Position numbers and translations under genes: made by a program. The notes below the pieces were generated by a model. The model ran no database searches. It had not been told where the DNA came from and worked only from the letters and a program-made list of their open reading frames with translations. This document shows, in pieces, positions 1,206 through 64,000 of a stretch of 64,000 nt of DNA (its first letter is position 1; the number at the start of each line of letters is the position of its first letter). This DNA comes from a virus: IMG/VR virus record IMGVR_UViG_3300045988_121102, one strand, 5' to 3'.

Positions 1206-1490
1206 TTAACTGTTCGACTTTTCCGAACTGTTCAATCTACGTTCCAAAATCTCTAAAAACCACATGATCATCGGAACTGCTGTCAAAACTTCTTGCATTT
1301 GACCATCTTTATAGGTACGGTGTGTAAATTCTTTATATTTTTCAGTGAGAGCTCCCACGTCATTTACAATTTCATCCCATTTCCCGTCTGACATATCCTC
1401 TGGCGTTAAATTTCGATATTTCAAGAAAAAGACGTTGTGCACATCGTTCATCAAGGACATTACATCCTCATTTTTCATTTCCTTTGTCAT
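1206..1490 (-). CDS. hypothetical early protein
   Basis: 94-aa ORF whose start is coupled (ATGA overlap) to the upstream gene. Confidence 0.5.
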   Translation of the reverse strand: MTKEMKNEDVMSLMNDVHNVFFLKYRNLTPEDMSDGKWDEIVNDVGALTEKYKEFTHRTYKDGQMQEVLTAVPMIMWFLEILERRLNSSEKSNS

Positions 1491-8232: not shown

Positions 8233-8646
8233 TTACATCCCTTTATCTGGTTCCAGTTTGACTGTTTCAGACTCTTCCACTGGATAGATTGCCTTGAAAT
8301 CGGACGAATTTCTTCTATCGGCAAAATATGTTACTTTTCCACCGATCAGACCCGCAAAATGTCTTGCTATTGTAAAGCCATCTTTGTTTGTGATGTGAAT
8401 TAATGTATCTATTGGAATTGAATTCCAATCCATATCTGATGTATCAGAATCTGATTCCAATCCCAACCATACTTTTCTCGACTCTGAACAATAATCAGCA
8501 GCATTAAATCGACAATGTTCACAGTCCTGCGTTTCGCTGCAATCAAACAAACGACCAGTTTCATTGTTTATTCCAAAATCAAATTGGTGTAAAGAAGTGT
8601 TTATGATCTGTTCTCTGTATTTCTCTCTGTTTATCAACTTTACCAT
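8233..8646 (-). CDS. hypothetical Cys-containing protein
   Basis: 137-aa ORF containing CSETQDCEHCRFNAADYC. Confidence 0.45.
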   Translation of the reverse strand: MVKLINREKYREQIINTSLHQFDFGINNETGRLFDCSETQDCEHCRFNAADYCSESRKVWLGLESDSDTSDMDWNSIPIDTLIHITNKDGFTIARHFAGLIGGKVTYFADRRNSSDFKAIYPVEESETVKLEPDKGM

Positions 8647-10404: not shown

Positions 10405-10430
10405 TGTTCTGTTACCTCTCTTTCTTAAAT

Positions 10431-10467
10431 GTATCTTATCCTCATGTGTTAATTTGTGGTTGTCAAG
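10431..10467 (-). promoter_or_regulatory. promoter-like conserved element, copy 2
   Basis: CTTGACAACCACAAATTAACACATGAGGATAAGATAC, located about 30 nt upstream of the ssb start. Confidence 0.5.
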
Positions 10468-10478
10468 ATGTTTCTGCC

Positions 10479-11608: not shown

Positions 11609-11916
11609 CTCCCTCTATTTTCCTACGCGAACCTTAACTGCCCGCCCGCATCCTCGCCCAGACGATCCGCGCGGCAGTTTGGCAGCCGCTTCGCAACGCA
11701 TAATTCTTTCAGATTTGCTTTTACCAGTGCCGTCGGTATCGGTTGTCTACAATCAGCTCTCCGTTAATCATCGACCTCATTCTCCTCTGGTATTCTCTTT
11801 TCTAACGCCTCTTTTAAAGCTGCAATAATCGTATAGTCAGAAAGTTGGTTGTTTTATTGTTTTCAGAATTCTTCACTCTTCTTCCTCCTGTATAAATTCA
11901 TCACTGGCTTCCTTTC

Positions 11917-30687: not shown

Positions 30688-32910
30688 CTATTTGCCTTTC
30701 CGCTTCATTAAGCTATTAAGTCTGCGACTCATGTTTTGAACACCGGAAATTAAAATTCCAATATAGTTGTTGTAATCGATAACGAGATGATCGTCTTTTC
30801 CAAACTGATACAATGCATTTCCATATTCTTCTGATAGAACATTCTCTGCCACGTCCTGTGCAATTAGTCCAGCACTGCTGATTCCGTTTCTCTTATACTC
30901 AAAAAAAACAGGCGTCAAAGAATTTAGAAATTCTTCTGATTCCTGTGTAGACAAACTTGTTATATTCCGTTTTAGACGCGAATCCGAGTCCTCTTTGGGG
31001 ATCGGACCCGAATATTTTTTTGCAATAACCCAGTCAATCTGAGATGGATCATCACCTTTGCAAAGAATGATGCCAGCGGTAATATTTTGAATATTAATCT
31101 GTGCGCTATCGTCTGCACCAATTTCATCATCGGTTTTTAACTGAACCACATCAAGACTACCCAGTTCAAAATTTGTACCATCTATTGTGGATGCTGATAT
31201 TTCATTTGCTGTGATAAAATTACCTTTTATCTCAATACCAGTTAATGTGGAACCAGATATATTTGTACCTGTTATTGTGCCACTGAAATTACCACGGCTA
31301 GCAATGATCCCATTACAAGTCAATGTACCATCAGCTGTCATGCTGGAATTATTCGCTTTCCAAGTAAAGCGGTTTCCGGTTATAGAAATTTGCCCTGATT
31401 CCTGAGAAATTGCTGCTGATAATCCGCCTTGACTAACTAGCAACGAAATATTCTTTGCATTCTGGCTGATTTGACTCTGCAAATTTTCATTACTTTTTGT
31501 CAAAACGGTTGTGATCTCCGATTCAGTCTGCGTTATGTTGTTAGATATCTCTCCCTCCGCATCAGTAGCTCTTTTGACTTCAGCCGATATATTCCGATTT
31601 GTTATCTCAAATTTAGATGATATATCTTTGCTCAAATCATCCATCGAAAGAACAATTTTGTCCGCTTGCTCCATCAACAGATATGACTTTCCATCAACTT
31701 CTTTGATTGAATTGTACAAATCATTGGTTGCATTTTCACTTTCATCAGCTGATGATTCTATGGAATCCATCATGGCTTGACATCCGCTCATGGTTCGTTT
31801 CATGCAAAATGTTTCTATGATGTCATCGCGAGTTATAATCCGTAGCGCATCTCCGGGTTCTATCCAGGGCATTGCTCGGCATTCCAATGTGCATGGTCTG
31901 TATGTTCTTCCATAGACATATGGGAATATTGACTGTGCTATATTAAGCAGCTCAACAACAGTTTTGCCATAAAGTAAGAAGTTCCCAGAAATTGTATAGA
32001 GATTTCCCGCATCTCCTACACTAGCGCCAATCTCTCCGTTCTGTTGAAAAATCTGTAATCCAGTATATCCTTCAATCATCTTATCTTCATATTCCAAAGA
32101 TTTGAAGGACATAATCTGCTGCACACTTCTGCCATCACTTCCCAATTCAGACGGGTAAAGTTCATTGTCATCTGGGTATAATGTTTCAGATGGATATAAT
32201 CCCGTCTGTTGAATCTGAATGTATTTAAGCAATCCATTCTTATCTATGTACCCAAAGGATACGTTGATCTGGCAGATGGCTTTTAATATTTCCATGCCAG
32301 AAATTTCAACTGGGTTGATTGTCTTTTCAACTTTTAGGGAATCAAAAAGCAGATCCGTTTGAATCTGCCTTACTCCAATATATTCACACAAAGAATCTCG
32401 CATCTCACGAATGCTTATCGGAAATGTTAAGCCATTGTACCAGCTTGATACATCCGTATTGAAAAGCCGCATTCGATTGTATGCTGTGATTTTTCTCTTT
32501 CGCCTGTCTGACTGCCTCACATATGACTCTACGGTATAATACCCTAATGGAATCTGGTATTCCCCCACTTCTTCTGTCAGAAAAAATTCTTTTCCAGTTA
32601 AATCTTCAATGACATCTGCCACCACAATTTCCAATAATGCAGAGGAGCATGAGCCAAATTCCAGATTACTGTTATCACACAATGACTCAGTGATTGTCAA
32701 ACTCTCACTTTCAATACGATCGTTTTCAATAAGCACCCATACTTCATTCTGTTCGGACGGGAACAAACTATCTTCTGGGAACAATGTCTCTGCCGGAAAT
32801 AATGAATCATACCCTTTGCTGTAAAAAGATAGCTTAAATTTTCTTGCATCAGATGGAGTAACATTGTCGCTGACTAATACTTTTTTGAATTCATCAGATA
32901 TATTAATCAT
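30688..32910 (-). CDS. tail protein with C-terminal S74 intramolecular-chaperone domain (paralog 2)
   Basis: SDSRLKRNI..AGLIAQDV.. is an S74-type C-terminus. The N-terminal ~400 aa are homologous to 32903-35095. Confidence 0.65.
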   Translation of the reverse strand: MINISDEFKKVLVSDNVTPSDARKFKLSFYSKGYDSLFPAETLFPEDSLFPSEQNEVWVLIENDRIESESLTITESLCDNSNLEFGSCSSALLEIVVADVIEDLTGKEFFLTEEVGEYQIPLGYYTVESYVRQSDRRKRKITAYNRMRLFNTDVSSWYNGLTFPISIREMRDSLCEYIGVRQIQTDLLFDSLKVEKTINPVEISGMEILKAICQINVSFGYIDKNGLLKYIQIQQTGLYPSETLYPDDNELYPSELGSDGRSVQQIMSFKSLEYEDKMIEGYTGLQIFQQNGEIGASVGDAGNLYTISGNFLLYGKTVVELLNIAQSIFPYVYGRTYRPCTLECRAMPWIEPGDALRIITRDDIIETFCMKRTMSGCQAMMDSIESSADESENATNDLYNSIKEVDGKSYLLMEQADKIVLSMDDLSKDISSKFEITNRNISAEVKRATDAEGEISNNITQTESEITTVLTKSNENLQSQISQNAKNISLLVSQGGLSAAISQESGQISITGNRFTWKANNSSMTADGTLTCNGIIASRGNFSGTITGTNISGSTLTGIEIKGNFITANEISASTIDGTNFELGSLDVVQLKTDDEIGADDSAQINIQNITAGIILCKGDDPSQIDWVIAKKYSGPIPKEDSDSRLKRNITSLSTQESEEFLNSLTPVFFEYKRNGISSAGLIAQDVAENVLSEEYGNALYQFGKDDHLVIDYNNYIGILISGVQNMSRRLNSLMKRKGK

Positions 32911-35095
32911 CGTTTCCCTCCAGTCTTTTCAATCTGCTATCCAAATACTGAAAGCAGGCAATCAAAATTCCAATAAAATGCATATATGGGATTCCATAAT
33001 AACCTGTTTTTGGATCAACATCATACAACGGCCAGTCAAGGTTATTTTCCATCAAAACTGTTTCAACCTCCTGTGCAATCAGTCCGATTGCTTCATCTCC
33101 GGACGATTTGAACTGATATTTCACTGGCCTTAACGCGTCAACCACTTTCATTGCTATTTCTGGCGGAATATCCCGTATATTCTTCTTTAAACGTCTGTCA
33201 GAATAATACGTAAACTTCGAACATTGCAAATAACTGAATTCCCCTCTGGTTGCATTAACATACGTGCATTCCTCTATGGATTTTACACTTAATACACCAA
33301 GGTTCAACTCTCCTGTGGCCGTTACTTTACTAGCTTTTATATCGGAACCAGTGATCGTGGAACCTTTAATTGTTGCACCAGATACAGTGCCACCGCTTAT
33401 CGTATTACCAGTAATCGTTGCGCCGGTAATCGTTCCACCACTAATCGTTGAGCCCGTGATAGTTCCAGAAAAAGTTCCGTTCGTAGCTTTGATATTCTGG
33501 CAAGTCAACGTGCCATCCGAAGTCATGTTGGAATATGTAGAATTCCAAGAAAAGCGATTGCCTTGGATATTAACTCCGCCACTTTCCACGGAAATTTCCG
33601 AAGAAACACTTCCCTTGCTAACTTTTAGCTTGATTGCATCCGCATTCTGTGTAATTTGTGACTGCATCTGATTTGCAGAATCGGCGACTTGTGTTTTTAA
33701 AGATTCTGCTGTCAACGTAATTTGCGATGAAAGTTTATTTTCTGACTCTGTCGCTCTTGTCACTTCTGCGGATATCTGATCCGCGGTAACTTTAAATTGT
33801 GCTTCTGTTTTCTCTCCTAAATCCGTTACTTTCGCAGAAACCTCTTCGATATTTCGCGTAATAACTGCTGTCTTACCAAGGAGCTGGATAATCTGCTTAT
33901 TGACTCCAAATACTTCTTCTCTAGTCTGACCTCCTGTTGCCTCGTATGTGTCCATCATAGCTTGACATCCGCTCATGGTTCGTTTCATGCAAAATGTTTC
34001 TATGATGTCAGTTTGAGTGACAGCTTGAAGATAATCTCCTACCTCAATCCAGGGCATCGCATAACATTCGATATTTGCCGGGCGATACGTTCTCCCAGAA
34101 ATATATGGTAATAATGTTTGGGCTATGCTTATCATTTCCGCAGCGCTTTTCCCATATACCAAAAAGTTCCCTTCGATGGTATAAACAGAATCACTTGTTC
34201 CTACGCTAGAACCTATATCTCCTTCTTCCTGTCGAATCGTCAACCCTGTGATGCCATCGATCATGTAATCTTCATACTCCAATGGCTGTTTATAGTAGTT
34301 GATATGTTCAACTGCTCGATCATCACTACCTTTTTCCGATGGATACAATTCTTCCTCTGGATAAAGAGATTCTGACGGATACAATCCAGTTTGTTGCAAC
34401 TGAATATACTTCAAGGCTCCGGTTCTATCCATATGACCAAAGCATCCATTCAACTGGCAAATTGCCTTTAAGACTTCCAACCCAGAGATTTGTTCCGGTT
34501 CAATAGTCTTTTCAATTTTTAACGAATCAAATGGCAGCGAAATCTGAATCTGACTAATTCCAATGTACTCACATAAGGAATTTCGAAATTCAAACAATGT
34601 CATTGGGAACGTCAGTTCATTGTACCATACAGCCACATCTACATCGAATAATCGCATATTGTCATACGCTGTAATCTTCCGTTTCCTGCGATCGGATTGT
34701 CTTGTGTATGATTCTACGGTATATACACCAAGAATCATTTCATATCCGCCGCATTCTACGCTCAGGGTAAAAGTCCGTCCAGTCAGATCCTCGATAACAT
34801 CTGCAACCACAATTTCCATGCTGGATGCTTCACAAGCGCCAAATTCCAATTCATCCGAATCACAAAGAGCTTCTGTGATAGTCAACGACTCACTCTCGAT
34901 CCGATTGTTTTCAATCGTTACCCAGGGAATGCCATTCTCAGCCGGAAATAGTGTATCTTCCGGAAATAACGTCTCATAAGGGTACAATGTATCAGCAGTC
35001 TCATCATAAAACGTTAGTTTAAATTTTTTTTGCGTTTCTACACTGGTATTCCCGGAACGATATAGGTCTTTGATTTTTTCTGGCATATCAAGCAT
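32903..35095 (-). CDS. tail protein with C-terminal S74 intramolecular-chaperone domain (paralog 1; Tal-like position)
   Basis: SDRRLKKNI..IGLIAQEV.., with TGxTISG beta-helix-like repeats. Confidence 0.65.
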   Translation of the reverse strand: MLDMPEKIKDLYRSGNTSVETQKKFKLTFYDETADTLYPYETLFPEDTLFPAENGIPWVTIENNRIESESLTITEALCDSDELEFGACEASSMEIVVADVIEDLTGRTFTLSVECGGYEMILGVYTVESYTRQSDRRKRKITAYDNMRLFDVDVAVWYNELTFPMTLFEFRNSLCEYIGISQIQISLPFDSLKIEKTIEPEQISGLEVLKAICQLNGCFGHMDRTGALKYIQLQQTGLYPSESLYPEEELYPSEKGSDDRAVEHINYYKQPLEYEDYMIDGITGLTIRQEEGDIGSSVGTSDSVYTIEGNFLVYGKSAAEMISIAQTLLPYISGRTYRPANIECYAMPWIEVGDYLQAVTQTDIIETFCMKRTMSGCQAMMDTYEATGGQTREEVFGVNKQIIQLLGKTAVITRNIEEVSAKVTDLGEKTEAQFKVTADQISAEVTRATESENKLSSQITLTAESLKTQVADSANQMQSQITQNADAIKLKVSKGSVSSEISVESGGVNIQGNRFSWNSTYSNMTSDGTLTCQNIKATNGTFSGTITGSTISGGTITGATITGNTISGGTVSGATIKGSTITGSDIKASKVTATGELNLGVLSVKSIEECTYVNATRGEFSYLQCSKFTYYSDRRLKKNIRDIPPEIAMKVVDALRPVKYQFKSSGDEAIGLIAQEVETVLMENNLDWPLYDVDPKTGYYGIPYMHFIGILIACFQYLDSRLKRLEGNDD

Positions 35096-39494: not shown

Positions 39495-40229
39495 CTACAG
39501 CGCCATAACCTGTTGAGCATTGGCGTTCCGGATCTCTTCTTCCAGAAAATACGGCGGCTGGTACGAATTGATGATATCGATCGCTTTATCACACTGACTC
39601 CGCTTAATGCTCTTATACGAACGCACTCCAAAATTATATTTCAGATTCGAATATAGGTTGCTGTATAATTTCTGTCGTAACCCTTTGTTCCTATACGCGC
39701 TGGAATTGATTCCGCCCAAAACCTCGACGCCCTTTTTCTTGGTCGCTGTCGTGATCCGCTCCGCCTCGATCGGGAGAATTGGAAGATCTGCTTTGATAGC
39801 TTCCACATCAGACTGAATCGTATCGATCCTTCGTTCCAATTCCACATTTCCCCTCGCAAGAAGCTGAATCTGCTCTGGGATCGTCAGCGGAATGCCATAC
39901 GAACCGGTTCTACGGATGCTTGGAAGCACCTCCGATGTTACCCAGCGTTTGAAACGTTTTGCAGAATCCAGTTTGCTGCCGAAGATCAATGAGTATAAAC
40001 CAGACTCATTGATAATTGTCATTTTCTGTTTTCCGCCAGGGGTCACTAATTCAGTGACCCCTTTATCTTCTTCTGAAACATGGTTCAAAATTGCATTATT
40101 GAGAGATTTCCCTTCTCCGTACCCTAATGCTTTAGCCACATCCTTACCGACAAACCACGGCTCATTATTAATAGTCGTTGTCCGGATGTCTCCGAACTCT
40201 TTGCTATTGAAAATCTGCATCTCTTCCAT
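39495..40229 (-). CDS. Bro-N-domain antirepressor-like protein
   Basis: QIFNSKEFGDIRTTTINNEPWFVGKDVAKALGY. Confidence 0.7.
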   Translation of the reverse strand: MEEMQIFNSKEFGDIRTTTINNEPWFVGKDVAKALGYGEGKSLNNAILNHVSEEDKGVTELVTPGGKQKMTIINESGLYSLIFGSKLDSAKRFKRWVTSEVLPSIRRTGSYGIPLTIPEQIQLLARGNVELERRIDTIQSDVEAIKADLPILPIEAERITTATKKKGVEVLGGINSSAYRNKGLRQKLYSNLYSNLKYNFGVRSYKSIKRSQCDKAIDIINSYQPPYFLEEEIRNANAQQVMAL

Positions 40230-40474: not shown

Positions 40475-40651
40475 TTATTCTCTGAGTTCCTCATCTATCT
40501 TTTCGTTTAACCAGGCTGTTTTTGATTTCCCTTTTTCCTTTAACTTTTCAGTCAAGGCATTCAACTTTTCTCTGGAAACAGGAACATTAAATTGTCCTAT
40601 GGTTTTACGACGTTCCTTGAAGTATTCAGAATTTGTTTTTTTTGCAATCAT
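40475..40651 (-). CDS. ribbon-helix-helix-like small regulator (58 aa)
   Basis: ..GKSKTAWLNEKIDEELRE. GGAGG ribosome-binding site, with a palindromic operator upstream. Confidence 0.45.
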   Translation of the reverse strand: MIAKKTNSEYFKERRKTIGQFNVPVSREKLNALTEKLKEKGKSKTAWLNEKIDEELRE

Positions 40652-40760: not shown

Positions 40761-43700
40761 CTAAAATGATACGCCTAATTGTTTACCGGTCCGCTTCCGA
40801 TACGAAGTGGCGGCTTTCTTATACTTACTCTGAAAAGCATTGTCATCAAAGACAAGACCTTTACTATTCATTTCTTCCAAAATCTGATTCTGTTCACTTA
40901 TCGTGCTTTGCAACTGCCGCATCTGATACGTGTACTCTGCCATTTTTACGTCCATCTCTCCCTGCATATTCAAGGAGAGAGCATCCATGTCAAGAGATGC
41001 AGATTTGAGATTCGGTTTTTTCGGCAAGTCAAAGTTTACCGTTGGAGTCTGCAAGGCGAAATTCTTGTTTATGCCTTTTGCCCATCCTTTTACCGCATCA
41101 TATGTGGAATCAGCGTTATCCGTAATTCCAAGATTGAATCCTTCGACGAAATACGCGCCAACTTTTTTCATGACCTTAGATGGGGATGCAACTCCACCTT
41201 CTTTTTCTGTTTGGCCAACTACAATAGATGCCAAATTCCTAGCGGCTGCTCCAATACTTCCCAATAATCCATTGTTTTGAAGACCCCTAAGAAATCCTTC
41301 TAGCATGAACTTTCCGACGCTTTCCATGCTATTGCCCTCTTCGTTACTAGCCGAATTCGCACTGTCATGAACAGTCCTGGGCAAATCCTTAGATGCATCC
41401 GATAACTGCCCTTTGAGCCCTTCATCTTTAATACCTTCAATCAGGTTCTGATCTACATCCAGGCCTAATTGTTTCAGTTTATTCACCAATGGTCCGCGCT
41501 CACTAGCTTCTGCCTTATCAATTTGCTGCAACAGGTTAATGGCGGTTGTTTGTGTCTCTGATTCCTTGCCTGCAATCGCTTTAATCAATTCATCCGGCAC
41601 ATCCAGGCCAAGACCATTAAACAGATTAATCAACTCTGGCTGTTTCAGTTGAACACCATTATTTACCTCCGTCAGCAGACCAATCACCGTGCTTTGAACT
41701 CCGGCATTCTGACTGGCGAGGTTTGTAATCAAATCTGACGGAAGTGTGATTCCCAAACTCTTGAACAAACTTTCAAGCTGTGGCTGTGTTGCCTGTACAC
41801 CAGAAGAAATATTTGCCAACAGTGTTGTTACACTCAACTGAACTTCTGGGGACTTATTGGCAAGAACTCCGATAAACTCATCAGTCATTTGCGGAGCAAT
41901 CTGTCCAAACAAAGTTTTCAGTTCTTCCGCTGATAACTGTGTCTGCTCCATCATCTTAGAGAACATCCCCTCAATAGCCGTGACTGAAATACTGTCGCTG
42001 GTTGCAATTTTCTGGGCGAAATCATCGGTAATCGTGATACCAAGATTCTGGAACTCTGTTTTGAGCCCTTCAATACCAGTTTGAATGGTTTGATTGTTTG
42101 TTGCTACTCCTGTAGCCGCGTTTTGATAGGCGGTACTGAAATATTCGATATCTCCATTAACATCTGACAACGCTTGTCTGGTATTTCCCAGTGTTTCCGT
42201 TGCTTGGTTAAACGCATCATTTGCTGCCTGGTATTCAGCGTCAATTTTTCTCCATTCTACACCGAACGGATCGTAGGTGGTTGTCATACTACCCTCTCCA
42301 CCAATTCTGCCAGCTTCTGCCTTTTTCTTATATTCATCAATTTTCTTTTGCGACTCCAAAAGTTTCTTCCTGGCTTCTGTCTGGGCATCAACCGCATCCG
42401 CAACTGCTTTTTCGCCCTTAATCTGCTTTTCATAAGACTCTTCCAAAGAACTCATAGCAGCTTTAGCTTGTGCTAACTCTTTCTGCTTATCAATGGTTTT
42501 TTGAAGTTCATCACGGTTGACTTCCAAAAGACCTGTTTCCCCGTTAAAGTACTGCTCCAGTTCCGGGTACATCTGAACCAGGTCCTTGCTATACTGTTTC
42601 ATTAAAGAAATGTCTTCTGCGGTTGGGTTGGCTTTACTATGAAGCGCTTCATACTTATTAGCCATATCTTCTGCCATTTTGGCTTGTGCTTCTCCGGCAG
42701 TTCCAAAATCATCCTTCATCTTTTGCGTGGAATCTCTCAGATCCTCGATACGCTGATTGATGTCTTTTTGGTGGGAATCGAAATTGCTTACCCATTCGTC
42801 AAGTTCTGGTGTTTCTGATAAGCCTTTGAGAAAACCACTCCACAGAGAAACAATGCCTGTAATTGCTGACACTGCTAATCCGGCTGGTCCAAACGCTGTA
42901 TAAAGAGCTGCGCTTGCCAATCCGGCGGCAGTAATGATAGCCATAATATTGGTGCTAAGATTTCCAACACCTGTTGCCAAATTCTGTGCGGCATTGTAAC
43001 AAGTAAGGAATTCTCCCGCAATAGCTCCAATACCTAATGCATATCGAGCAAATGTGGATAATTGACTTCCGATAGCCTGTAATGTTGTTGGTAATGCGCC
43101 AAGCCAATTTCCACTCTGTACGGAATCTCTAAATGTAGTAAATGCAGTTCTAAGCAAAACCACAACTTTTTCAGCTTTCGGCGCTGCTTCTTTTAACGCC
43201 ACAATGGCATCTGTACTACCTCCTAAAGCCGTTATAAACAGTTTCGCTTTTCCAACACTGTTTCCTAAAGCATTCGCAAATTTCTGAATGTTTCCGGTTT
43301 TCAACATCGCCGTTACACCAACCAATGTGAGCAACGCCGTCTGTAATGGTGCTGTTTCAAATGTTCCTTTGTAAAGGTTAAAAGCTGCGTTAATTCCGTT
43401 CCAAATTGCCTTTCCGACACTTGCTAGGATTTTGGCATAATCAATACTATTGAGGAATTTTCCGATCTGCTGACCGATCATCTCCCATTTGATTTTTGAC
43501 AGTGCCTCATTAATTGCTGTCAATAAGCCAAGCGCCCACGTGCTAATCGTATGCCCTAATAATCCAAAATCAAAAGTGGAAAAAAACTGGTTTACGCCTG
43601 CCGCTATGGAAGCACCAAAGTTTTTCCAGTCAAATGTAGTTCCGAATGAATCAAGGAAATGCAGTGCTGTATTCAGCGCTCCGGCAATCGTTCGACCTAA

Positions 43701-44312
43701 TGCCCCGAACAAATCTGGAGAAATCAGACCGTTCAAAAAATCTGCCAGACCTTTACCGAAATTCTCTGCACTTTGATAAATACTATCCCAGTCGATTCCG
43801 TTCATAGCATTTGTCAGTGTGGTTCCAATGTATTTTCCCAGTTCATACAGAGAATCTATCTCACTCTTATATTTCTCCAGAATAGAGTCTCTCTTAACCA
43901 GTTTAGCATCCGCACCATTGGCATTTCCGCCGCCTGCACCGCCACCTCCGCCAGAACCGCCAGATCCAGAGCCGTCATCTGATGTCATGTTGTTTACTTC
44001 ATGCCATGCTGCAATATAGCGGTTCAGCTTCTTTGCATTATCCGCAGCCTTGCCGGTTCCATCCGCCATATCCTCTGCACCTGCACCAGCCGCATCGAAA
44101 TCATTTGCCAGTCCTCCGGCATCGATTTCTATTGTCCAGCCGAAGATCGCGCCAAGCGCATTTGCTACCGTTTTTGCAAAAGCAATTACCGATTTCATGA
44201 CGCTATTCAGTGCTGTGATAAACGGCTTGAATGCATTAACTAAAACGCCACCAACAATTCCGCCTAATTGCTGGAATTGCTGTACTAAAATTCGCGTCTG
44301 ATTCGCCCATGT
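40761..44312 (-). CDS. tape measure protein, exon 2
   Basis: Begins (T)WANQTRILVQQFQQLGG, which continues the motif interrupted at the end of exon 1. Long helical protein with a Gly-rich stretch. Confidence 0.75.
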   Translation of the reverse strand, partial: TWANQTRILVQQFQQLGGIVGGVLVNAFKPFITALNSVMKSVIAFAKTVANALGAIFGWTIEIDAGGLANDFDAAGAGAEDMADGTGKAADNAKKLNRYIAAWHEVNNMTSDDGSGSGGSGGGGGAGGGNANGADAKLVKRDSILEKYKSEIDSLYELGKYIGTTLTNAMNGIDWDSIYQSAENFGKGLADFLNGLISPDLFGALGRTIAGALNTALHFLDSFGTTFDWKNFGASIAAGVNQFFSTFDFGLLGHTISTWALGLLTAINEALSKIKWEMIGQQIGKFLNSIDYAKILASVGKAIWNGINAAFNLYKGTFETAPLQTALLTLVGVTAMLKTGNIQKFANALGNSVGKAKLFITALGGSTDAIVALKEAAPKAEKVVVLLRTAFTTFRDSVQSGNWLGALPTTLQAIGSQLSTFARYALGIGAIAGEFLTCYNAAQNLATGVGNLSTNIMAIITAAGLASAALYTAFGPAGLAVSAITGIVSLWSGFLKGLSETPELDEWVSNFDSHQKDINQRIEDLRDSTQKMKDDFGTAGEAQAKMAEDMANKYEALHSKANPTAEDISLMKQYSKDLVQMYPELEQYFNGETGLLEVNRDELQKTIDKQKELAQAKAAMSSLEESYEKQIKGEKAVADAVDAQTEARKKLLESQKKIDEYKKKAEAGRIGGEGSMTTTYDPFGVEWRKIDAEYQAANDAFNQATETLGNTRQALSDVNGDIEYFSTAYQNAATGVATNNQTIQTGIEGLKTEFQNLGITITDDFAQKIATSDSISVTAIEGMFSKMMEQTQLSAEELKTLFGQIAPQMTDEFIGVLANKSPEVQLSVTTLLANISSGVQATQPQLESLFKSLGITLPSDLITNLASQNAGVQSTVIGLLTEVNNGVQLKQPELINLFNGLGLDVPDELIKAIAGKESETQTTAINLLQQIDKAEASERGPLVNKLKQLGLDVDQNLIEGIKDEGLKGQLSDASKDLPRTVHDSANSASNEEGNSMESVGKFMLEGFLRGLQNNGLLGSIGAAARNLASIVVGQTEKEGGVASPSKVMKKVGAYFVEGFNLGITDNADSTYDAVKGWAKGINKNFALQTPTVNFDLPKKPNLKSASLDMDALSLNMQGEMDVKMAEYTYQMRQLQSTISEQNQILEEMNSKGLVFDDNAFQSKYKKAATSYRKRTGKQLGVSF

Positions 44313-44606
44313 CACATAATGTTATCGTAAAGGCTTTTTATCCTCTACTTCTTACAGTTTCCTGTAAGGTCGGCGTACATATTCGACCCAGTAGGTCGTC
44401 GGTCACTCTTGGGGATATTTTATTCTATAACTCTTTCCAAAATAGAAAGAGCATAGGTTCAATCCCTACGCTCTACAATGTACTATATCTTTTATGATAT
44501 AGTCTTATCTCGGTATTAACTTATTGACAATAGACATCAACTTAGCCTTCACCGATTTTAACCGATTTTATCATAACGCATTACTGCGTTAGGCGGCACA
44601 CATTCT
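44313..44606 (-). mobile_element. group I intron (~294 nt) in the tape-measure gene
   Basis: P1 pairs exon GCGGU with the internal guide GCCGC, placing a U.G pair at the 5' splice site. GNRA hairpins ACGCA-GUAA-UGCGU and CUUACAG-GAAA-CUGUAAG are present, the intron ends in G, and the exons join in frame. Confidence 0.7.
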
Positions 44607-46166
44607 ACCGCTTGTTCTGGCGAAGTCTCCTTGCGCGATAGCAGTATTAGCCATAACATATTGATAACGCAACATCGTTTTTTGTGCCTGCGTCATCGAA
44701 GATATGTTCGCGTCAAGTCCGTTTTTCAACGCATATTCTTTTAAGGTCGTTTGGGTTAAGTCTAAGCCGTACTTACGCAGCGGCTCTGTCTCTCCTGAGA
44801 ATACAGCTTGTAAACTTCTCGCAACCTCTTTCTGTGACACATTGTAGAAAGAAGCCATATCCGCTGCCAGCTTAGTCAGTTCGATGGACATATCAGACAT
44901 CTTACCTTGTGCAAATCCCATCGCCATTCCCATTGCCTGGAAACGACCAGAAATTTGTTTCGCAGTCAACTCAGACATGCCGAAGTCCTGGATAGAATGC
45001 TGAGTCAGTTCATCAACCTTGCTTGCGTAATCGCCGAATGCGTTATCTACAACGTTCTGAACCTCTGTTAGGTCTGAAGAAATATCGACCGCTTTCTTAA
45101 ACCCTTGTAATGCCCTAAGCAACATCCAATAAGTCGCATAGAATTTTCCAATCGCACCGGCCAGACCAGAGAAGGATTTCTTAGCCTTGCTAGATGCACT
45201 TGGCAATGACAACAAGCCTTTTGACAGATTTCGAGAACTGTTTCCAGCCTTATTACCTGCATTTGCCAAATTTGCCAACGCCTGTGTCATTTCAAGCACA
45301 TTTTTGCTGACTTTCGGTGCGGTTGACAATGTTGTCAGCATCTCCTTCAGTGCTTTTGCCAGACTGGTAATATTTCCACTGGCAGCTCTGGTAGCCGTTA
45401 CTGTTCCAAGCTTTGAAATTCCATTAGCAAGTTCAGTCAATCCCTGTACATCAAACCCACTAAAATCCAATCCCTTTAATTCTGAGGACAGATTTTTGAT
45501 AGGTGCAATCAGTGCTGGAATATTGGCTGCCGCTTGAGTGACTGTCTTTCTGCCAAGCGTTCCGATCGCCGTCGCGATGTTTCTGATTCCAGTATCATCA
45601 AACTGGATTCCATTCAGCATTGCCAAATTGGATGCTAATTGCTGGATCCCGGCTGACGTCTGCCCGATCTCCTGCATTCCAGCCGCGGACGAAATACCAT
45701 TGGTGGCATTTGCCCCCTGCGCTGACATTCCACTGAGCATGGAAGTGATTCGCTGAATCGTGCTTTCCATCGACGTCAGAGAAGTGATTTCATTTTTCAC
45801 AGACGCAGAAACGACGCTGCCCTCTTGCTGAAATGCTTTGGTTTTCTCTTTTACTGCACTCGTTACTTCAGAAACTGTAGCTTTGAGATTTCCAAGCTCG
45901 GAACTTATTGTATTTTTTCCACCCGCTTGACTAGACAAATCAATACCTTTCATAGTATTTTGAAGCTCTGTTGCGGATCCTGATAACTTTGTAAATGTAG
46001 ATGATAAATTCGTCAGCTTACGAATATCAATCATATTCACACTGGATGCCAGTTTCTCCAGCGCATTTGACATTCGCTCAATTGATGCGTCCGCTCCCCC
46101 TACATCACTGGCTATTTCCAATAATAAAGAATCTATAACATTATCTGCTGCCATTTCTACCTCCAT
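44607..46166 (-). CDS. tape measure protein, exon 1
   Basis: Ends ..ANTAIAQGDFARTSG. The read-through ORF adds only RMCAA* from intron sequence. Confidence 0.75.
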
Positions 46167-58963: not shown

Positions 58964-61705
58964 CTAAAATGGACTTGTCATAATTCTGGTTCGTGAAACT
59001 CCACTGCCCTTATTCAAAAATACTGCTAATGCCGCCAATGAGTCCGGTGCATCATCATGCTTATTTTTACCAGTGATTGTAAAACTGTAAACTTGATTAA
59101 GAAACTTTCGATATTCTTTTGATTGACAACCTGAATCTCGAAAATAAAAGCTCCGAATAGCTTGTGCATTATCCCATATTCTTTGTTCCTTTCGTTGCGA
59201 TGTTTTTTTTCCTCCTTTTCCGGCATTGACGATCATCTGTTGTGCAAATCTGGAAATCAAATTGATTTGAACTCCACGTTCTTTCAGCATTCCATTTATA
59301 TCATCCTTGTAACCTTCGCCACCATTATTCGCCTCAAAAAAGGCATTCGACACATGATTCCTGATTAACGCATCCAAGACTTTCGGCTGTGTAATCATCT
59401 TTTCGCTGCTATCAAACACAACGTCATGAATGTAAACCGAACCATCTTCATATACATAAGCAATTGGCATGGAAAGATAGTCTGTTCCGCCCAAAGCCAC
59501 ATCACACGCAGCGACCACTTTCAGCGGTGCCACATCAGGCAACACACCATTGTAAAAATTCATATGCTCTGGGTTAAATACCGCGCCATCACGTTCAATC
59601 GGTTCCTGCTGACATTGTGCGAACCACGATGCCATATCGTCATTTTCTTCAAATTTTGCACGTTCAATTCGATAATATTTCGTACTGAACCCGACATTAT
59701 AATCATAATCAAAGTTGGATTCATCTGTTTCTGGGTCTAGCGCCGGTATCTTTAAAACTTCCCATCTGATTCCTTTTGCCTCTGGATTGTTCTCCAGAAA
59801 TCCCATACGATTCATATAGATATCATGCAGACTCCAAATGGTTCCGTTATAAAGGACCTTGCATTTCTCTTTTTTACGTTTCATAAGGTTGTTATCAAAC
59901 AACATCTGCTTTCGTGCTAAAACATCCGGACTCAAAACATCCTCAATACCTGCCAAAATATCATCCGCTACCAGCCATCCGGTCGCATCGTACAAACCGT
60001 TCAAACCAGATGTCAGACCTTTTCCAGACAATGACTTGTATTTCTTCTTGCGCTCCAAATCAACGGTATTAGCTTTAGCATCAGTGGATACGATTCTGGC
60101 ATTTGGAAAAACATCTGTATGTAGATAAATCGGATCTGTCCATATTTCCTTTACGCCATCAAGAAATGCCCCTCCAGCATCCTCTTTATATGAACAGTAA
60201 AGATTACTCAGCTCTGTATTTCGGCAGCAATGCCATGCCATTCCAAGTGTGATTATCTGCGTATTATGTGTTGGAACCATTGTTTTCCCAACCAAATACA
60301 AACCATCACTATTTGAAACCGTAATGCAGTTGCCTTGTTTTGGAATGCTTCTTGTGATTGATTTGATAGAAATCCTATGTTTCTTTGAAAATTCTTTTAG
60401 TTTCTTTCGTTCGATTGTACATGGTATTTCAATTGTTGGATTAAATCCAATGGTATATACTGCATTTCTACCAATTACACCACTGCTTGATATTTTCGGT
60501 TCTTTCTTTTTTATAGATGCTCTCCATCCAAACGTGGATATTAAAGAAACAAAGTCGTTTTTTAACGTTTCATTTGCGGTTGAAAACTGATATCTTCTTT
60601 CTTTTCTAATCAAACATCCATCCGTGTCCAGCAAGCCCGCCAAAAGTTCCAGTCGCTGCTTTACAGAAGCACATAAATATTCTTTCGGTATGTGTTTATT
60701 ACAAATTTTCGTATAATAACACATATCATAAGTTCTTAAATCGTCTACCAGTTCCCTGCCAAATACTGTTGTTATTACCCCTGTCGTTTTATGAACGTAT
60801 TGATGTTTTATTGGATATCCATACTTTACAATTTTATCGACAATAGCAGAATCCGATTGAGGCCCAGAAATGGCAGGCTTTTTATTGGTTCCATCACCCA
60901 ACCAGGCCCCTAAAACATACGGATGTACTTTTAGTTGCATTTCCGTTCCTGCCATTATCGGCTTTTGAGGAAGATAAAATCTATATCTATCATTAAATCG
61001 TTCTTTTCCTATTAAGTTTTGAGTTTCTTCTGTTTCCCAGACACCTCTTTTTTTGTCATAGACAGTCCATTCGTGTCTAAAGTGGCATTCAATCTTTGTG
61101 CCATCGGACAATTCCACTGTATGAGTTGTATGATATTTAGGATGAACGCAAATCACTGTAGTAAACTTTCCATCGCTACCAATGACTTGATCTCCTAATT
61201 TTAATTCTCCGTGAGTTTTCCATCCACTCTTTGTAAACACTGGCGTATCATCGGCTAATAGCTTACCAACACGCGCCGGCATGTGAATAAATCCCTCATC
61301 CAGCTGATCATCTTCCAGTCGTTGAAGCAGATTGACAACCTTTATCAATGTCTTGCGTCTAGGCTGATAAAAGCGTTCCTGGGGTTTTCTATCCTTTTCA
61401 ACATACAAAGCATAAGAATCCAACAGATCTGGAGCTTCAAATAAAAGCAACTGCCAGTACAAATCATCAAAATTTCCACTTCCTGTTTGTGCTGCCCTAT
61501 AAGCCGCCATCTGATGCAAATATTGACTGATTTTCAACGCACAGTCTTTAACATCCTTATGTTCAGCGAATACATAATCGCTACGCATATTCAAAATAAG
61601 CTGAAACAAATCTTCCTGGCTTTGATAATCTTTCAAACCACATTTCATAATCCGGTCCGCAATGTATTTATACCATTCAAGACTGCCCTCTATTAATTTT
61701 GACAT
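58964..61705 (-). CDS. terL: terminase large subunit (intein-containing precursor)
   Basis: The exteins rejoin to give PARVGK|TQIITLG (Walker A GKT). The nuclease half lies downstream. Confidence 0.8.
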   Translation of the reverse strand: MSKLIEGSLEWYKYIADRIMKCGLKDYQSQEDLFQLILNMRSDYVFAEHKDVKDCALKISQYLHQMAAYRAAQTGSGNFDDLYWQLLLFEAPDLLDSYALYVEKDRKPQERFYQPRRKTLIKVVNLLQRLEDDQLDEGFIHMPARVGKLLADDTPVFTKSGWKTHGELKLGDQVIGSDGKFTTVICVHPKYHTTHTVELSDGTKIECHFRHEWTVYDKKRGVWETEETQNLIGKERFNDRYRFYLPQKPIMAGTEMQLKVHPYVLGAWLGDGTNKKPAISGPQSDSAIVDKIVKYGYPIKHQYVHKTTGVITTVFGRELVDDLRTYDMCYYTKICNKHIPKEYLCASVKQRLELLAGLLDTDGCLIRKERRYQFSTANETLKNDFVSLISTFGWRASIKKKEPKISSSGVIGRNAVYTIGFNPTIEIPCTIERKKLKEFSKKHRISIKSITRSIPKQGNCITVSNSDGLYLVGKTMVPTHNTQIITLGMAWHCCRNTELSNLYCSYKEDAGGAFLDGVKEIWTDPIYLHTDVFPNARIVSTDAKANTVDLERKKKYKSLSGKGLTSGLNGLYDATGWLVADDILAGIEDVLSPDVLARKQMLFDNNLMKRKKEKCKVLYNGTIWSLHDIYMNRMGFLENNPEAKGIRWEVLKIPALDPETDESNFDYDYNVGFSTKYYRIERAKFEENDDMASWFAQCQQEPIERDGAVFNPEHMNFYNGVLPDVAPLKVVAACDVALGGTDYLSMPIAYVYEDGSVYIHDVVFDSSEKMITQPKVLDALIRNHVSNAFFEANNGGEGYKDDINGMLKERGVQINLISRFAQQMIVNAGKGGKKTSQRKEQRIWDNAQAIRSFYFRDSGCQSKEYRKFLNQVYSFTITGKNKHDDAPDSLAALAVFLNKGSGVSRTRIMTSPF
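60263..61261 (-). mobile_element. intein (333 aa) with LAGLIDADG homing endonuclease
   Basis: N-terminal LLADDTPV, block B ..CHFRHEW, LAGLIDADG motifs LGAWLGDG and LLAGLLDTDG, block F GNCITV, and a C-terminal VPTHN|T. Confidence 0.75.
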
Positions 61706-61785
61706 ATAAAAAGAACCACGCTCCCCCTTTATCAAAAAGTGAAGTCATGGCTCTCTAAATATTGGCTCTCTTGACTAACTATCCA

Positions 61786-63081: not shown

Positions 63082-63155
63082 TGGACCATCAGGGAATTGA
63101 ACCCCGGACACACGGCTTATAAGGCCGCCGCTCTAACCGTCTGAGCTAATGGTCC
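63082..63155 (-). tRNA. tRNA-Ile (anticodon UAU)
   Basis: Perfect 7-bp acceptor stem GGACCAT/ATGGTCC, a D arm, the anticodon loop CTTATAA and a T arm CGGGG-TTCAATT-CCCTG. Confidence 0.85.
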
Positions 63156-63295
63156 TTAGCAGAAGGCAGATTGGGTAAAATCCTTCTGCTGTTGCAGTTC
63201 ACAAACCACCAGCCGCAACAAAGGTATTATCCACAGAGGGTATCAATGTGAATAATCGGGCACCCTGTTAGCCGGGAAGCACAGAGTATCCCGAA

Positions 63296-63368
<73 letters not shown>

Positions 63369-63382
63369 AAAACGAATATCTA

Positions 63383-63658
63383 CTATTCGTTTAATGACTC
63401 TCTGAATGGCTGATGCGTCCAGAATTTGATGTCATGATGAGCTGGAACATCATACACAATGCCGGTGGTCGGAACTTTGCACGAACGTGCCTTTCTGACA
63501 ACCTTCTCAAAGCTACCAAATTTATCAATCTGAATGCGTTTTCCCTTTTTCAGTTCACGCCGCATGACTTCCAGAAACTTATCAACGATGATCTTGGTCT
63601 CATTTTCCTCAATGCCAGTTTCTTTAGCAACCATTCTAATCATTTCTAGTCTGTGCAT
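63383..63658 (-). CDS. HU/IHF-family DNA-binding protein
   Basis: ..IQIDKFGSFEKVVRKARSCKVPTTG.. matches the HU beta-arm pattern. Confidence 0.75.
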   Translation of the reverse strand: MHRLEMIRMVAKETGIEENETKIIVDKFLEVMRRELKKGKRIQIDKFGSFEKVVRKARSCKVPTTGIVYDVPAHHDIKFWTHQPFRESLNE

Positions 63659-63690
63659 ACTCTTTCACTTCCTTTCCTTAATGCTGTTAA

Positions 63691-63771
63691 TACAGATAGT
63701 GGGACTTGAACCCACATGATGTAAATCGTCAGATTTTGAGTCTGATGCGTCTTCCATTCCGCCATATCTGC
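63691..63771 (-). tRNA. tRNA-Leu (anticodon CAA), class II
   Basis: Anticodon loop CTCAAAA, a long variable arm and the T arm GTGGG-TTCAAGT-CCCAC. Confidence 0.8.
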
Positions 63772-63941
63772 ACATGTAAGTGTAAACCCTGTAAATCACT
63801 TACCATTTATTTTTTTACCGACCATGAACTTTACCCAACACATCAAACACTTAATGCGACTACACAAAGCTGTTGCAAGTATTTATATATAAACCTCTAG
63901 CCTCTCCATAACGAGATTTATTCTAAGGATTTTTGGTCAAA

Positions 63942-64000
63942 CTGGAGCAGTCAGACTTAAACTGACGACATCTTGATTAAAAGTCAAGCGCTCTAACCAA
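63942..64000 (-). tRNA. tRNA-Lys (anticodon UUU), 5' end truncated by the window edge
   Basis: Part of the D arm, the anticodon loop CTTTTAA, the T arm GTCAG-TTTAAGT-CTGAC and the 3' acceptor strand. Confidence 0.7.

What the first reader, a model, noticed from the sequence alone, without database searches (positions are those of the whole stretch)
44313..44606. Group I intron splitting the tape-measure gene
ORFs 44589..46166 and 40761..44315 are two halves of one tape-measure protein. The first ends ..QGDFARTSG and the second begins (M)TWANQTRIL. From memory, TP901-type tape-measure proteins carry a contiguous ..FARTS..WANQ.. motif.

The 294 nt between the halves has no ORF and shows group I hallmarks:
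- The exon 3' end GCGGU pairs with the internal guide GCCGC 9 nt downstream, forming P1 with a U.G pair at the splice site.
- GNRA-capped hairpins are present: ACGCA-GUAA-UGCGU and CUUACAG-GAAA-CUGUAAG.
- Several further stems are visible, for example AGAGCGUAGG..CCUAUGCUCU and CUCUUUC..GGAAAGAG.
- The terminal nucleotide is G.

Splicing at GGU| ... AUG|ACA gives an in-frame TSG-TWANQ junction.
Basis: partly seen in the sequence, partly recalled or inferred. Interest (0 to 1): 0.7.

Follow-up and report, generated by a model that had tools for sequence, protein, structure and literature searches.

The report
Group I intron in phage tape-measure gene
A 294-base self-splicing (group I) intron without its own endonuclease gene interrupts the tail tape-measure gene of an uncultured gut phage; the call is correct, but phage introns in tape-measure genes are already known, so this is a well-supported new example and not a new kind of element.

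Summary
On the minus strand, ORFs 46166..44589 and 44315..40761 are two halves of one tape-measure gene, separated by exactly 294 nt (44606..44313).

- **Insert is dispensable:** four IMG/VR contigs encode the same protein (99-100% identical over the 310 aa spanning the junction) with no insert (…AGCGGT|ACG TGG…). Two others carry the same 294 nt.
- **Junction:** splicing gives GDFARTSG|TWANQ, gap-free against ten uninterrupted homologs. One tape-measure profile covers both halves (positions 133-355 and 357-911).
- **Group I evidence:** Rfam Intron_gpI matches full length (40.4 bits, E 7.5e-7), below its gathering score of 50.
- **Structure:** 35 related introns support P6, P7, P7.1, P8 and P9 by covariation, and nine support P3. 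P1 (U·G), P10 and the terminal G are present.
- **Relatives:** some carry a GIY-YIG endonuclease ORF in the P5a loop at the same site. This copy is ORF-less.

Corrections:
- The 3' junction is GUG|ACA, not AUG|ACA.
- The proposed stem AGAGCGUAGG/CCUAUGCUCU is not supported.
- The TP901-family label is not supported by Pfam or NCBIfam.

Group I introns in prophage tape-measure genes were described in 2008, so this is a new member of a known kind. Splicing itself is untested.

The parts
44607..46166 (-). Tape-measure gene exon 1. The likely true start is ATG 46154, which has GGAGG 5 nt upstream. The exon ends ..GCC AGA ACA AGC GGT (ARTSG).
   Evidence: PHROG 1535 tape-measure profile positions 133-355.
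44313..44606 (-). Group I intron, 294 nt, no ORF, 37% G+C against 44-45% in the exons.
   Evidence: Rfam RF00028 at 40.4 bits, E 7.5e-7, model positions 1-253. Absent from L007-L010 and present in L015/L017. Composition.
40761..44312 (-). Tape-measure gene exon 2. It begins ACA TGG GCG AAT CAG (TWANQ).
   Evidence: PHROG 1535 positions 357-911. No usable ribosome-binding site before the in-frame GTG at 44315.
44593..44611 (-). P1. The last five exon-1 bases GCGGU (44611..44607) pair with the internal guide GCCGC (44597..44593), with a U.G pair at the 5' splice site and a 9-nt loop.
   Evidence: Exon/guide covariation GGU:GCC versus GAU:GUC in relatives.
44598..44602 (-). 5' part of the internal guide (UGUGU), able to pair with the first bases of exon 2 (ACAUG, 44312..44308) as P10, directly next to P1.
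   Evidence: Read from the sequence. The same arrangement is seen in L289.
44576..44589 (-). P2 hairpin ACGCA-GUAA-UGCGU (GNRA loop).
   Evidence: Relatives have different GNRA-capped stems at this position.
44559..44565 (-). P3 5' strand UCGGUUA, pairing with 44405..44399.
   Evidence: 100% of cells paired in 9 introns, and 6 of 7 pairs show compensatory changes.
44510..44555 (-). P4-P5-P5a domain. Its terminal loop (UGUCUAUUG) is where relatives carry a GIY-YIG endonuclease ORF.
   Evidence: L005/L006 gene table.
44482..44503 (-). P6 hairpin ACUAUAUC/GAUAUAGU.
   Evidence: helix 1: 7 of 8 pairs have changes on both sides.
44467..44471 (-). P7 5' strand GCGUA, pairing with UACGC at 44377..44373. 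P7 forms a pseudoknot with P3.
   Evidence: helix 2: 100% paired, with G-C to A-U at one pair in 14 of 35 sequences.
44412..44466 (-). P7.1 (GGGAU/AUCCC) enclosing an optional hairpin, P7.2 (CUCUUUC/GAAAGAG). This extension lies between P7 and P3', as in subgroup IA.
   Evidence: helix 3: all 5 pairs compensatory, 100% paired. The inner hairpin is present in only about a third of relatives (helix 4).
44399..44405 (-). P3 3' strand UGACCGA.
44384..44398 (-). P8 hairpin CGACC-UACUG-GGUCG.
   Evidence: helix 5: 4 of 5 pairs compensatory.
44373..44377 (-). P7 3' strand UACGC.
44351..44368 (-). P9 hairpin CUUACAG-GAAA-CUGUAAG.
   Evidence: helices 6-8: four pairs show compensatory changes.
44327..44348 (-). 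P9.1 hairpin GUAGAGG/CCUUUAC. It lies within a 28-nt block, GTAGAGGATAAAAAGCCTTTACGATAAC, that is invariant across the intron family.
   Evidence: The stem is invariant, so it gives no covariation information (helix 9).
44313..44313 (-). Terminal G (omega-G), the last intron base.

Best explanation
The 294 nt at 44606..44313 (minus strand) are a subgroup-IA-like group I intron inside the tail tape-measure gene of an uncultured siphovirus-type phage. The host is probably a gut Clostridia/Lachnospiraceae bacterium.

**Splicing (inferred).** The late transcript is made through the intron and the RNA folds into the group I core: P1-P2, P3-P8 with the P3/P7 pseudoknot, a P7.1 extension, P9 and P9.1. 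An exogenous guanosine attacks after the U of the U.G pair in P1. The freed exon-1 3'-OH then attacks after the terminal G, with exon 2 held by P10. This joins ..ACA AGC GGU to ACA UGG GCG.., so that one tape-measure protein of about 1,700 aa is translated.

Unspliced RNA would give only the first half plus five intron-encoded residues (RMCAA, then a stop). The second half has no ribosome-binding site of its own.

**Origin (inferred).** This copy is an ORF-less form of a mobile intron. Its relatives at the very same site carry a GIY-YIG homing endonuclease gene in the P5a loop. The patch of synonymous differences around the insertion site suggests it entered this phage lineage by recombination or homing, bringing flanking exon sequence with it.

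**Shown here:** the exact boundaries, the dispensability of the insert, the restored frame and motif, and the covariation-supported structure.
**Inferred:** catalysis, splicing in vivo, and the route of acquisition.
For: 1. **Insert-free alleles.** L007-L010 encode the junction region at 99-100% amino-acid identity with no insert. L015 and L017 carry the same 294 nt at 98-99% identity.
2. **Gap-free junction.** The spliced junction aligns without gaps to ten uninterrupted homologs, with G47 D48 F49 R51 T52 W56 N58 invariant. Of 163 related loci fetched, 155 could be scored for both flanks: 151 have no insert, 2 have 294 nt and 2 have 1215 nt.
3. **One profile covers both halves.** PHROG 1535 tape-measure profile: exon 1 matches positions 133-355 and exon 2 matches 357-911. 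The spliced 310-aa segment matches 204-479 in one stretch at E 1e-47. Annotated tape-measure genes of isolated phages are contiguous here.
4. **Rfam.** Intron_gpI aligns over model positions 1-253 at 40.4 bits, E 8e-9 for the region and 7.5e-7 for the whole window. It is the only such hit in the window.
5. **Covariation.** On 35 distinct related introns, 95.5% of cells pair, 23 pairs have changes on both sides, 0 of 500 shuffles reach this, and slid controls give 32-47% paired. P3 is 100% paired with 6 of 7 pairs compensatory.
6. **P1 covaries with the exon.** Exons ending in Gly (GGU) go with guide GCC in 29 of 30 cases. Exons ending in Asp/Asn (GAU/AAU) go with GUC in 8 of 8. This was checked at nucleotide level in L289.
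7. **Relatives with an endonuclease.** L005/L006 have a 1215-nt insert at the same site. It is 86% identical over the 3' 215 nt and carries a GIY-YIG ORF in the P5a loop.
8. **Other features.** The stop codon falls 5 codons into the intron, there is no Shine-Dalgarno before exon 2, and the fold z-score is -6.3.
9. **Imported exon patch.** Intron-carrying alleles share a private patch of synonymous differences from about -174 to +9 around the site, roughly 10% divergence against under 1% further upstream. This includes L017, whose backbone otherwise matches the insert-free L008.
Against: - No RNA or protein data: splicing is inferred, not observed.
- The Rfam score is below the family's gathering score (40.4 against 50), so the default Rfam scan does not report it.
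- P4, P5 and P9.1 do not vary among the relatives, so they get no comparative support.
- The sequences used for covariation were collected through a 28-nt exact motif, so they are a biased and related sample.
- The synonymous patch shows recombination. It does not by itself prove endonuclease-driven homing, and no endonuclease related to the GIY-YIG of L005 is encoded anywhere in the window.
Confidence: 0.93

Rival explanations
1. A decayed intron that no longer splices. On this reading the tape-measure gene is a pseudogene in a defective prophage or phage remnant, and the two ORFs are debris.
For: There is no homing endonuclease gene, the Rfam score is below the gathering cut-off, and no expression data exist.
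Against: - Every core helix is intact and obeys the covariation pattern of the family. P1, P10 and the terminal G are all in place.
- Both exons are open over about 1,700 codons.
- Near the intron the exons differ from insert-free alleles only at synonymous sites.
- The same intron-carrying allele occurs in many independent assemblies: the P0002 cluster has 59 member sequences on 19 contigs, and L015 and L017 also carry it.
- The rest of the window is a complete-looking phage genome.
Confidence: 0.04
2. Two separate proteins by design. The tape-measure function is split into two genes, and the 294 nt are a structured intergenic element, for example a regulatory RNA or a terminator region.
For: Gene callers report a separate first-half protein in 60 of the best 120 homologs, so on the surface 'two ORFs' is the commonest state.
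Against: - Near-identical phages have a single uninterrupted gene.
- The truncated homologs end in residues encoded by the intron's internal guide. Where the DNA was read, they carry a homologous intron.
- Exon 2 has no ribosome-binding site.
- The same RNA core interrupts terminase, DNA polymerase and other tape-measure genes in unrelated phages.
Confidence: 0.02
3. Another kind of insertion: a group II intron, a miniature transposable element, or an assembly artefact.
For: None specific. This rival is considered only because any 294-nt insert in a gene could in principle be one of these.
Against: - No other Rfam family matches the region at E up to 10.
- There is no target-site duplication and there are no terminal inverted repeats at AGCGGT|AGAATG..TTATGTG|ACATGG.
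- The identical insert is present in independent assemblies.
- The group I core is supported by covariation.
Confidence: 0.01

Closest known systems
Group I introns TMP-IVS1/2/3 in tape-measure genes of Bacillus cereus-group prophages (Tourasse and Kolsto 2008, PMC2504315)
   Same: - Group I introns of subgroup IA1/IA2 inside the tape-measure gene of Firmicute (pro)phages.
- Some copies lack a complete endonuclease gene.
- Intron-less homologs exist.
- The introns sit in the most conserved stretch of the gene, and P1/P10 are adapted to the site.
- B. cereus 03BB108 plasmid prophages share the 3' core of the present intron at 88% identity.
   Different: - The tape-measure family, the host group (uncultured gut Clostridia phages) and the insertion site (GDFARTSG|TWANQ) are all different.
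- Whether any of IVS1-3 corresponds to this site could not be checked, because the figures are not held.
The same intron family with a GIY-YIG endonuclease at the same tape-measure site (metagenomic contigs L005/L006, protein cluster P0088)
   Same: - Identical insertion point.
- 86% identity over the 3' 215 nt and 94% over the P3-P4 segment.
- The same P7.1/P7.2 architecture.
   Different: - It is 1215 nt long, with a 293-aa GIY-YIG/NUMOD ORF in the P5a loop and an extra hairpin in the P1 loop.
- The window's copy has a 9-nt loop there and no ORF.
Related introns in isolated phages: Staphylococcus phage IMEP5 (terminase), Arcanobacterium phage TPWB06 and 6ec-like Staphylococcus phages (tape-measure), Alicyclobacillus phage MMB025 (DNA polymerase), Clostridium phage c-st (tape-measure CST131/CST130), phiCP39-O, phiCD211
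   Same: - Shared core sequence, 70-93% identical over P6-P9.1, including the invariant 28-nt P9.1 block.
- They split essential phage genes, and several carry endonuclease ORFs.
   Different: - Different host genes and sites.
- Mostly not annotated as introns in the records.
- Different P1/P2 and peripheral loops.
Classical phage group I introns (T4 td/nrdB/sunY, SPO1 DNA polymerase, Twort orf142, S. thermophilus lysin intron with deletion derivatives, Lactobacillus LL-H terminase)
   Same: From established knowledge:
- self-splicing subgroup IA introns in phage genes;
- endonuclease ORFs in peripheral loops;
- natural ORF-less deletion derivatives;
- homing with co-conversion of flanking exons.
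   Different: No detectable nucleotide similarity to these was sought or shown here. The comparison is by architecture only.

Membership tests
Group I intron (Rfam RF00028) | P1 helix between the end of the 5' exon and an internal guide sequence, with a U.G pair at the splice site | tested here: met
   GCGGU (44611..44607) pairs with GCCGC (44597..44593), with U.G at the cleavage site. The exon and guide covary in relatives.
Group I intron (Rfam RF00028) | Conserved catalytic core P3-P8 including the P3/P7 pseudoknot | tested here: met
   All helices are placed. P6, P7, P7.1, P8 and P9 covary in 35 introns. P3 covaries in 9 introns. P4 and P5 are present but invariant.
Group I intron (Rfam RF00028) | Terminal G at the 3' end, and P10 pairing of the guide with the 3' exon | tested here: met
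   The last base, 44313, is G. Exon 2 ACAUG can pair with UGUGU at 44602..44598, adjacent to P1.
Group I intron (Rfam RF00028) | Score at or above the curated gathering threshold of the covariance model | tested here: inconclusive
   40.4 bits against a cut-off of 50, so the intron is absent from the default scan. The alignment is nonetheless full length, with E 7.5e-7 for the 64-kb window. Relatives containing an endonuclease gene give no hit at all.
Group I intron (Rfam RF00028) | Precise removal restores the host gene | tested here: met
   Insert-free alleles L007-L010 and 151 uninterrupted loci. The junction aligns gap-free with homologs.
Group I intron (Rfam RF00028) | Guanosine-dependent self-splicing | not testable with these tools
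   Needs in-vitro transcription with GTP, or RNA from infected cells.
Subgroup IA | Extra pairing(s) P7.1/P7.2 between P7 and the 3' strand of P3 | tested here: met
   GGGAU/AUCCC (44466..44462 with 44416..44412) has 5 of 5 compensatory pairs. The inner hairpin is optional. IA1 versus IA2 was not resolved.
Mobile intron with homing endonuclease | Endonuclease ORF inside the intron | tested here: not met
   There is no sense ORF in the 294 nt and no relative of the L005 GIY-YIG protein anywhere in the window. Relatives at the same site do carry one.
Tail tape-measure protein | Profile match and position in the tail gene block | tested here: met
   PHROGs 1535, 1686, 5493 and 7025 all match. Annotated tape-measure genes of Roseburia, Streptococcus and Flavonifractor phages match across the junction. 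The gene lies after the tail tube and chaperone-like ORFs.
TP901-family tape-measure core (Pfam PF10145 / TIGR01760) | Match to the family model | tested here: not met
   No Pfam family matches either half or the spliced junction. NCBIfam gives only a weak LIC12611 hit at 20 bits.

The most novel reading that the evidence does not exclude
The ORF-less intron is not a passive passenger. On this reading it is still spreading among near-identical gut phages, and the GDFARTxx|TWxNQ codons of this tape-measure family are a hot spot.

- **Frequency.** Of the best 120 homologs, 89 contain the motif; about two thirds of these (60 of 89) carry an intron of this family.
- **Imported exon patches.** The roughly 110-175-nt upstream and under-60-nt downstream patches of imported synonymous changes would then be co-conversion tracts of recent homing events. 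These events would be driven in trans by the GIY-YIG enzyme of sibling introns during co-infection.
- **Asymmetry.** The imbalance between the two sides would reflect cleavage upstream of the insertion site.

If so, a large fraction of tape-measure genes in gut-virome catalogues are mis-called as two genes.
Probability: 0.35. Interest if true: 0.45.

Novelty: new member of a known kind. Interest (0 to 1): 0.35.

Why it matters
- **Annotation.** Gene callers split this essential gene into two 'hypothetical proteins'. That is what the databases hold: half of the best homolog clusters are truncated first halves. Recognising the intron restores a tape-measure protein of about 1,700 aa, and tape-measure length is what predicts tail length.
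- **Detection.** The case shows that Rfam's default threshold misses this widespread phage intron family. A 28-nt block finds it in at least 120 viral contigs.
- **Biology.** The pairs of nearly identical phages with and without the intron, and with imported exon patches, are a natural data set for studying intron gain and loss in gut phage populations. It does not change what is known about group I introns.

Tried and rejected
- **Rfam, default thresholds, whole window:** only tRNAs were reported and the intron was missed.
- **Rfam at E up to 0.01 on five loci with related introns (L001-L005):** nothing found, probably because endonuclease ORFs break the model.
- **Pfam on each half and on the spliced junction:** no family. 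NCBIfam gave only a weak, sub-threshold LIC12611 hit. The TP901 label was therefore dropped.
- **Megablast of 7 kb around the gene against GenBank phages:** only the intron core matched, so there is no close cultured relative of the phage.
- **tblastn of the L005 GIY-YIG protein against the window:** no homolog, so no endonuclease of that kind is encoded by this phage to act in trans.
tested on 35 sequences. It is present in only about 13-15 of them, has no compensatory changes, and does no better than shuffles. It was rejected in favour of P7 plus P7.1.
- **Structure prediction and profile searches of the protein:** not run. The question was settled at the DNA/RNA level.

Full report
**1. What is in the sequence**

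All genes in the window run on the minus strand. Read on that strand, a 525-codon ORF (46166..44589) ends ..AQGDFARTSG followed by RMCAA and a stop. After 273 nt, a 1184-codon ORF (44315..40761) starts at a GTG and reads (M)TWANQTRIL...

Deleting 44606..44313 (294 nt) joins ..ACA AGC GGT to ACA TGG GCG.. in frame. This gives one product of 1703 aa, or 1699 aa if the better-placed ATG at 46154 is the start, since it has GGAGG 5 nt upstream. The intron has 37% G+C against 44-45% in the exons. It folds much better than shuffled versions (-95 kcal/mol, z = -6.3).

**2. The two ORFs are one tape-measure gene**

- Pfam finds nothing in either half. The PHROG 1535 tape-measure profile is matched by exon 1 at profile positions 133-355 and by exon 2 at 357-911.
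- A 310-aa segment spanning the spliced junction matches positions 204-479 of that profile as a single stretch (E 1e-47).
- Ten uninterrupted homologs align across GDFARTSG|TWANQ without a gap. G, D, F, R, T, W and N are invariant around the junction.
- Annotated tape-measure genes of isolated phages (Roseburia phage Jekyll, Streptococcus phage Javan351, Flavonifractor phage Cormatin and others) are contiguous here.

**3. The insert is dispensable and its ends are exact**

A scan of IMG/VR returned four contigs (L007-L010) that encode the junction region at 99-100% amino-acid identity with no insert. Two contigs (L015, L017) carry the same 294 nt at 98-99% identity.

The insert-free alleles read ..ACT AGC GGT|ACG TGG GCC... 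The insert is therefore exactly 294 nt, with a 1-nt ambiguity because both candidate boundaries begin with A. The group I rule of a U before the intron and a G at its end selects 44606..44313.

Of 163 related loci fetched, 155 could be scored for both flanks:

| Insert at the junction | Loci |
|---|---|
| none | 151 |
| 294 nt | 2 |
| 1215 nt | 2 |

**4. It is a group I intron**

The default Rfam scan reports only tRNAs. With E-value reporting, Intron_gpI aligns over its full length (model positions 1-253) to 44616..44351 at 40.4 bits. That is below the gathering score of 50, but the E-value is 7.5e-7 for the whole window, and it is the only such hit.

The elements can all be placed:
- P1: GCGGU/GCCGC, with U.G at the splice site and a 9-nt loop
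- P10: exon 2 ACAUG with UGUGU, next to the guide
- P2: a GUAA-capped hairpin
- P3: UCGGUUA/UGACCGA
- P4-P5-P5a
- P6
- P7: GCGUA/UACGC
- a P7.1 stem (GGGAU/AUCCC) enclosing a small hairpin
- P8
- P9: GAAA-capped
- P9.1
- a terminal G

**5. Comparative support for the structure**

The 3' two thirds of the intron are 70-93% identical to sequences that split other genes in isolated phages:
- the terminase of Staphylococcus phage IMEP5
- the tape-measure gene of Arcanobacterium phage TPWB06 and of 6ec-like staphylococcal phages
- the DNA polymerase of Alicyclobacillus phage MMB025
- the tape-measure gene of Clostridium phage c-st
- prophage terminases on Bacillus plasmids

On 35 distinct 3' halves, the drawn structure gives these results:
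- 95.5% of cells are paired.
- 23 pairs have changes on both sides.
- None of 500 shuffles reaches this.
- Pairing falls to 32-47% when the partners are slid by 1-3 columns.

P7.1 has 5 of 5 compensatory pairs, P6 has 7 of 8 and P8 has 4 of 5.

P3, which spans more than 1 kb in relatives that carry an ORF, is 100% paired in nine introns, with 6 of 7 pairs compensatory.

P1 also covaries with the exon. Among truncated homologs with short tails, exons ending in Gly (GGU) go with a guide reading GCC in 29 of 30 cases. Exons ending in Asp/Asn (GAU/AAU) go with GUC in 8 of 8. This was confirmed at nucleotide level in L289.

The P7.1 extension between P7 and P3' is the mark of subgroup IA. I did not resolve IA1 from IA2.

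**6. Relation to mobile copies**

In contigs L005/L006 a more distant tape-measure gene is interrupted at the same codon boundary by 1215 nt. This insert is 86% identical to the window's intron over the 3' 215 nt. It contains a 293-aa GIY-YIG/NUMOD ORF in the loop of P5a. The window's intron has a 9-nt loop there and no sense ORF. No relative of that endonuclease is found elsewhere in the window.

Among the best 120 homologous protein clusters:

| State | Clusters |
|---|---|
| stop 5-11 residues after GDFxRTxx, with tails encoded by the intron's 5' end (RMCAA, KLCAA, KLCVA, KRNFCFMCRAA) | 60 |
| run on through xWxN | 29 |
| motif not found | 31 |

So 'two ORFs' is common in this family, but because of the intron and not by design. 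L289 shows another ORF-less copy in a different lineage.

**7. Signs of acquisition by recombination**

The intron-carrying and insert-free phages are almost identical upstream, with 0-3 differences per 250 nt. In the roughly 175 nt before the site they differ at 16-35 positions, and at +2 and +8 after it. Those between -106 and +8, which fall inside the 310-aa junction segment, are all synonymous.

The three intron-carrying alleles are identical to each other from -111 to +58. L017 has the backbone of the insert-free L008 outside -174..+58.

This is what co-conversion of flanking exon sequence during intron transfer would leave. It shows recombination. Endonuclease-driven homing is an inference.

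**8. How it most likely works**

This section is inference from the anatomy above and from established knowledge of group I introns.

The late transcript runs through the intron and the RNA folds. Exogenous guanosine cleaves after the U of the P1 U.G pair. Exon 1 is then ligated to exon 2 after the terminal G, guided by P10. The ligated message is translated into the full-length tape-measure protein.

Unspliced RNA yields only the first half, because the stop falls five codons into the intron. Exon 2 has no Shine-Dalgarno sequence: the only GAGGA lies 24 nt upstream, inside P9.1.

The main rival is a dead intron in a pseudogene. It is unlikely given the intact core, the open exons with only synonymous differences, and the recurrence of the allele in many assemblies (the P0002 cluster is on 19 contigs).

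**9. Comparison with what is known**

Group I introns in tape-measure genes of Bacillus cereus-group prophages were described in 2008 (PMC2504315). That work reported:
- three insertion sites
- subgroups IA1 and IA2
- some copies without a complete endonuclease gene
- intron-less homologs
- P1/P10 adapted to each site

Introns in phage capsid, tail, terminase, lysin and polymerase genes are also documented (PMC3706429, PMC4299906).

The present case is therefore a new member of a known kind: another tape-measure family, another site and another host group (uncultured gut Clostridia phages). It belongs to an intron family that is very common but falls below Rfam's threshold.

**10. Verdict**

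- Three details are corrected: the 3' junction is GUG|ACA, one proposed stem is wrong, and the TP901 label is unsupported.
- Confidence that this is a group I intron that is spliced to give one protein is about 0.93.
- Interest is moderate to low (0.35). The value is practical, for annotation and for natural intron-plus and intron-minus pairs, and not conceptual.

Noticed in passing
window 60263..61261 (-), inside ORF 58964..61735: The terminase large subunit (PHROG 38 and others) carries an insert of about 333 aa between the Walker-A GK and T: ..PARVGK|LLADDTPV...VPTHN|TQII...
- It has LAGLIDADG_3/Hom_end domains.
- Its best matches among solved structures are DnaB inteins (6bs8, 6rix).
- It has no Cys/Ser at position 1. 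It does have a Trp in block B (HEW), a Cys in block F (NCITV) and THN at the end.

From my own knowledge, this is the pattern of class 3 inteins. If so, the phage would carry both an intein and a group I intron in essential late genes.
   Followed up: partly
window 39495..40229 (-) and 40475..40651 (-): A Bro-N + ORF6C (antirepressor-like) gene and a 58-aa ORF (PHROG 3896) sit between the tape-measure gene and the distal tail genes, like an inserted accessory gene. A Bro-N gene also lies in the tail block of the related contig L006.
   Followed up: no
window 46154 vs 46166 (-): The tape-measure gene more likely starts at ATG 46154 (GGAGG 5 nt upstream) than at the first ATG, 46166. Database gene calls (P0002, 521 aa) agree.
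   Followed up: partly
window 63082..64000 (-): A cluster of tRNA genes: Ile-TAT, Thr-TGT, Leu-CAA and a fourth one cut by the window end. They lie upstream of the packaging genes.
   Followed up: no
L167-L286 (IMG/VR loci from the 28-nt motif scan): The invariant block GTAGAGGATAAAAAGCCTTTACGATAAC marks an intron family present in at least 120 viral contigs and in many different host genes. About 25 loci share a different 3' exon, ACAATGTATGAAGATCAAGG (..TMYEDQG..), and that gene was not identified. A further set at the tape-measure site (3' exon ACATGGGCGAATAG) has a different P7.1/P8 layout.
   Followed up: partly
L287 (Clostridium phage c-st NC_007581, 123817..124188): The published c-st genome annotates its tape-measure gene as an 'N-ter part' (CST131) and a 'middle part' (CST130), separated by 369 nt. 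That gap ends with the 3' end of a related intron (86% identity over 51 nt). It is probably an unannotated group I intron.
   Followed up: partly
L004 8001..11643: The closest uninterrupted homolog (P0001, 76% identity) has no intron at the site, yet it is called as two overlapping ORFs (8001-9599 and 9580-11643). This suggests a frameshift or assembly error about 100 codons downstream of the junction.
   Followed up: no
window 8579..9910 (-), 1487..3307 (-), 30688..35095 (-): Other recognisable genes:
- a C-5 cytosine DNA methylase
- a primase/DnaB-like helicase fusion
- two tail-fibre-like proteins of about 730 aa, each with a C-terminal Peptidase_S74 chaperone domain

   Followed up: no
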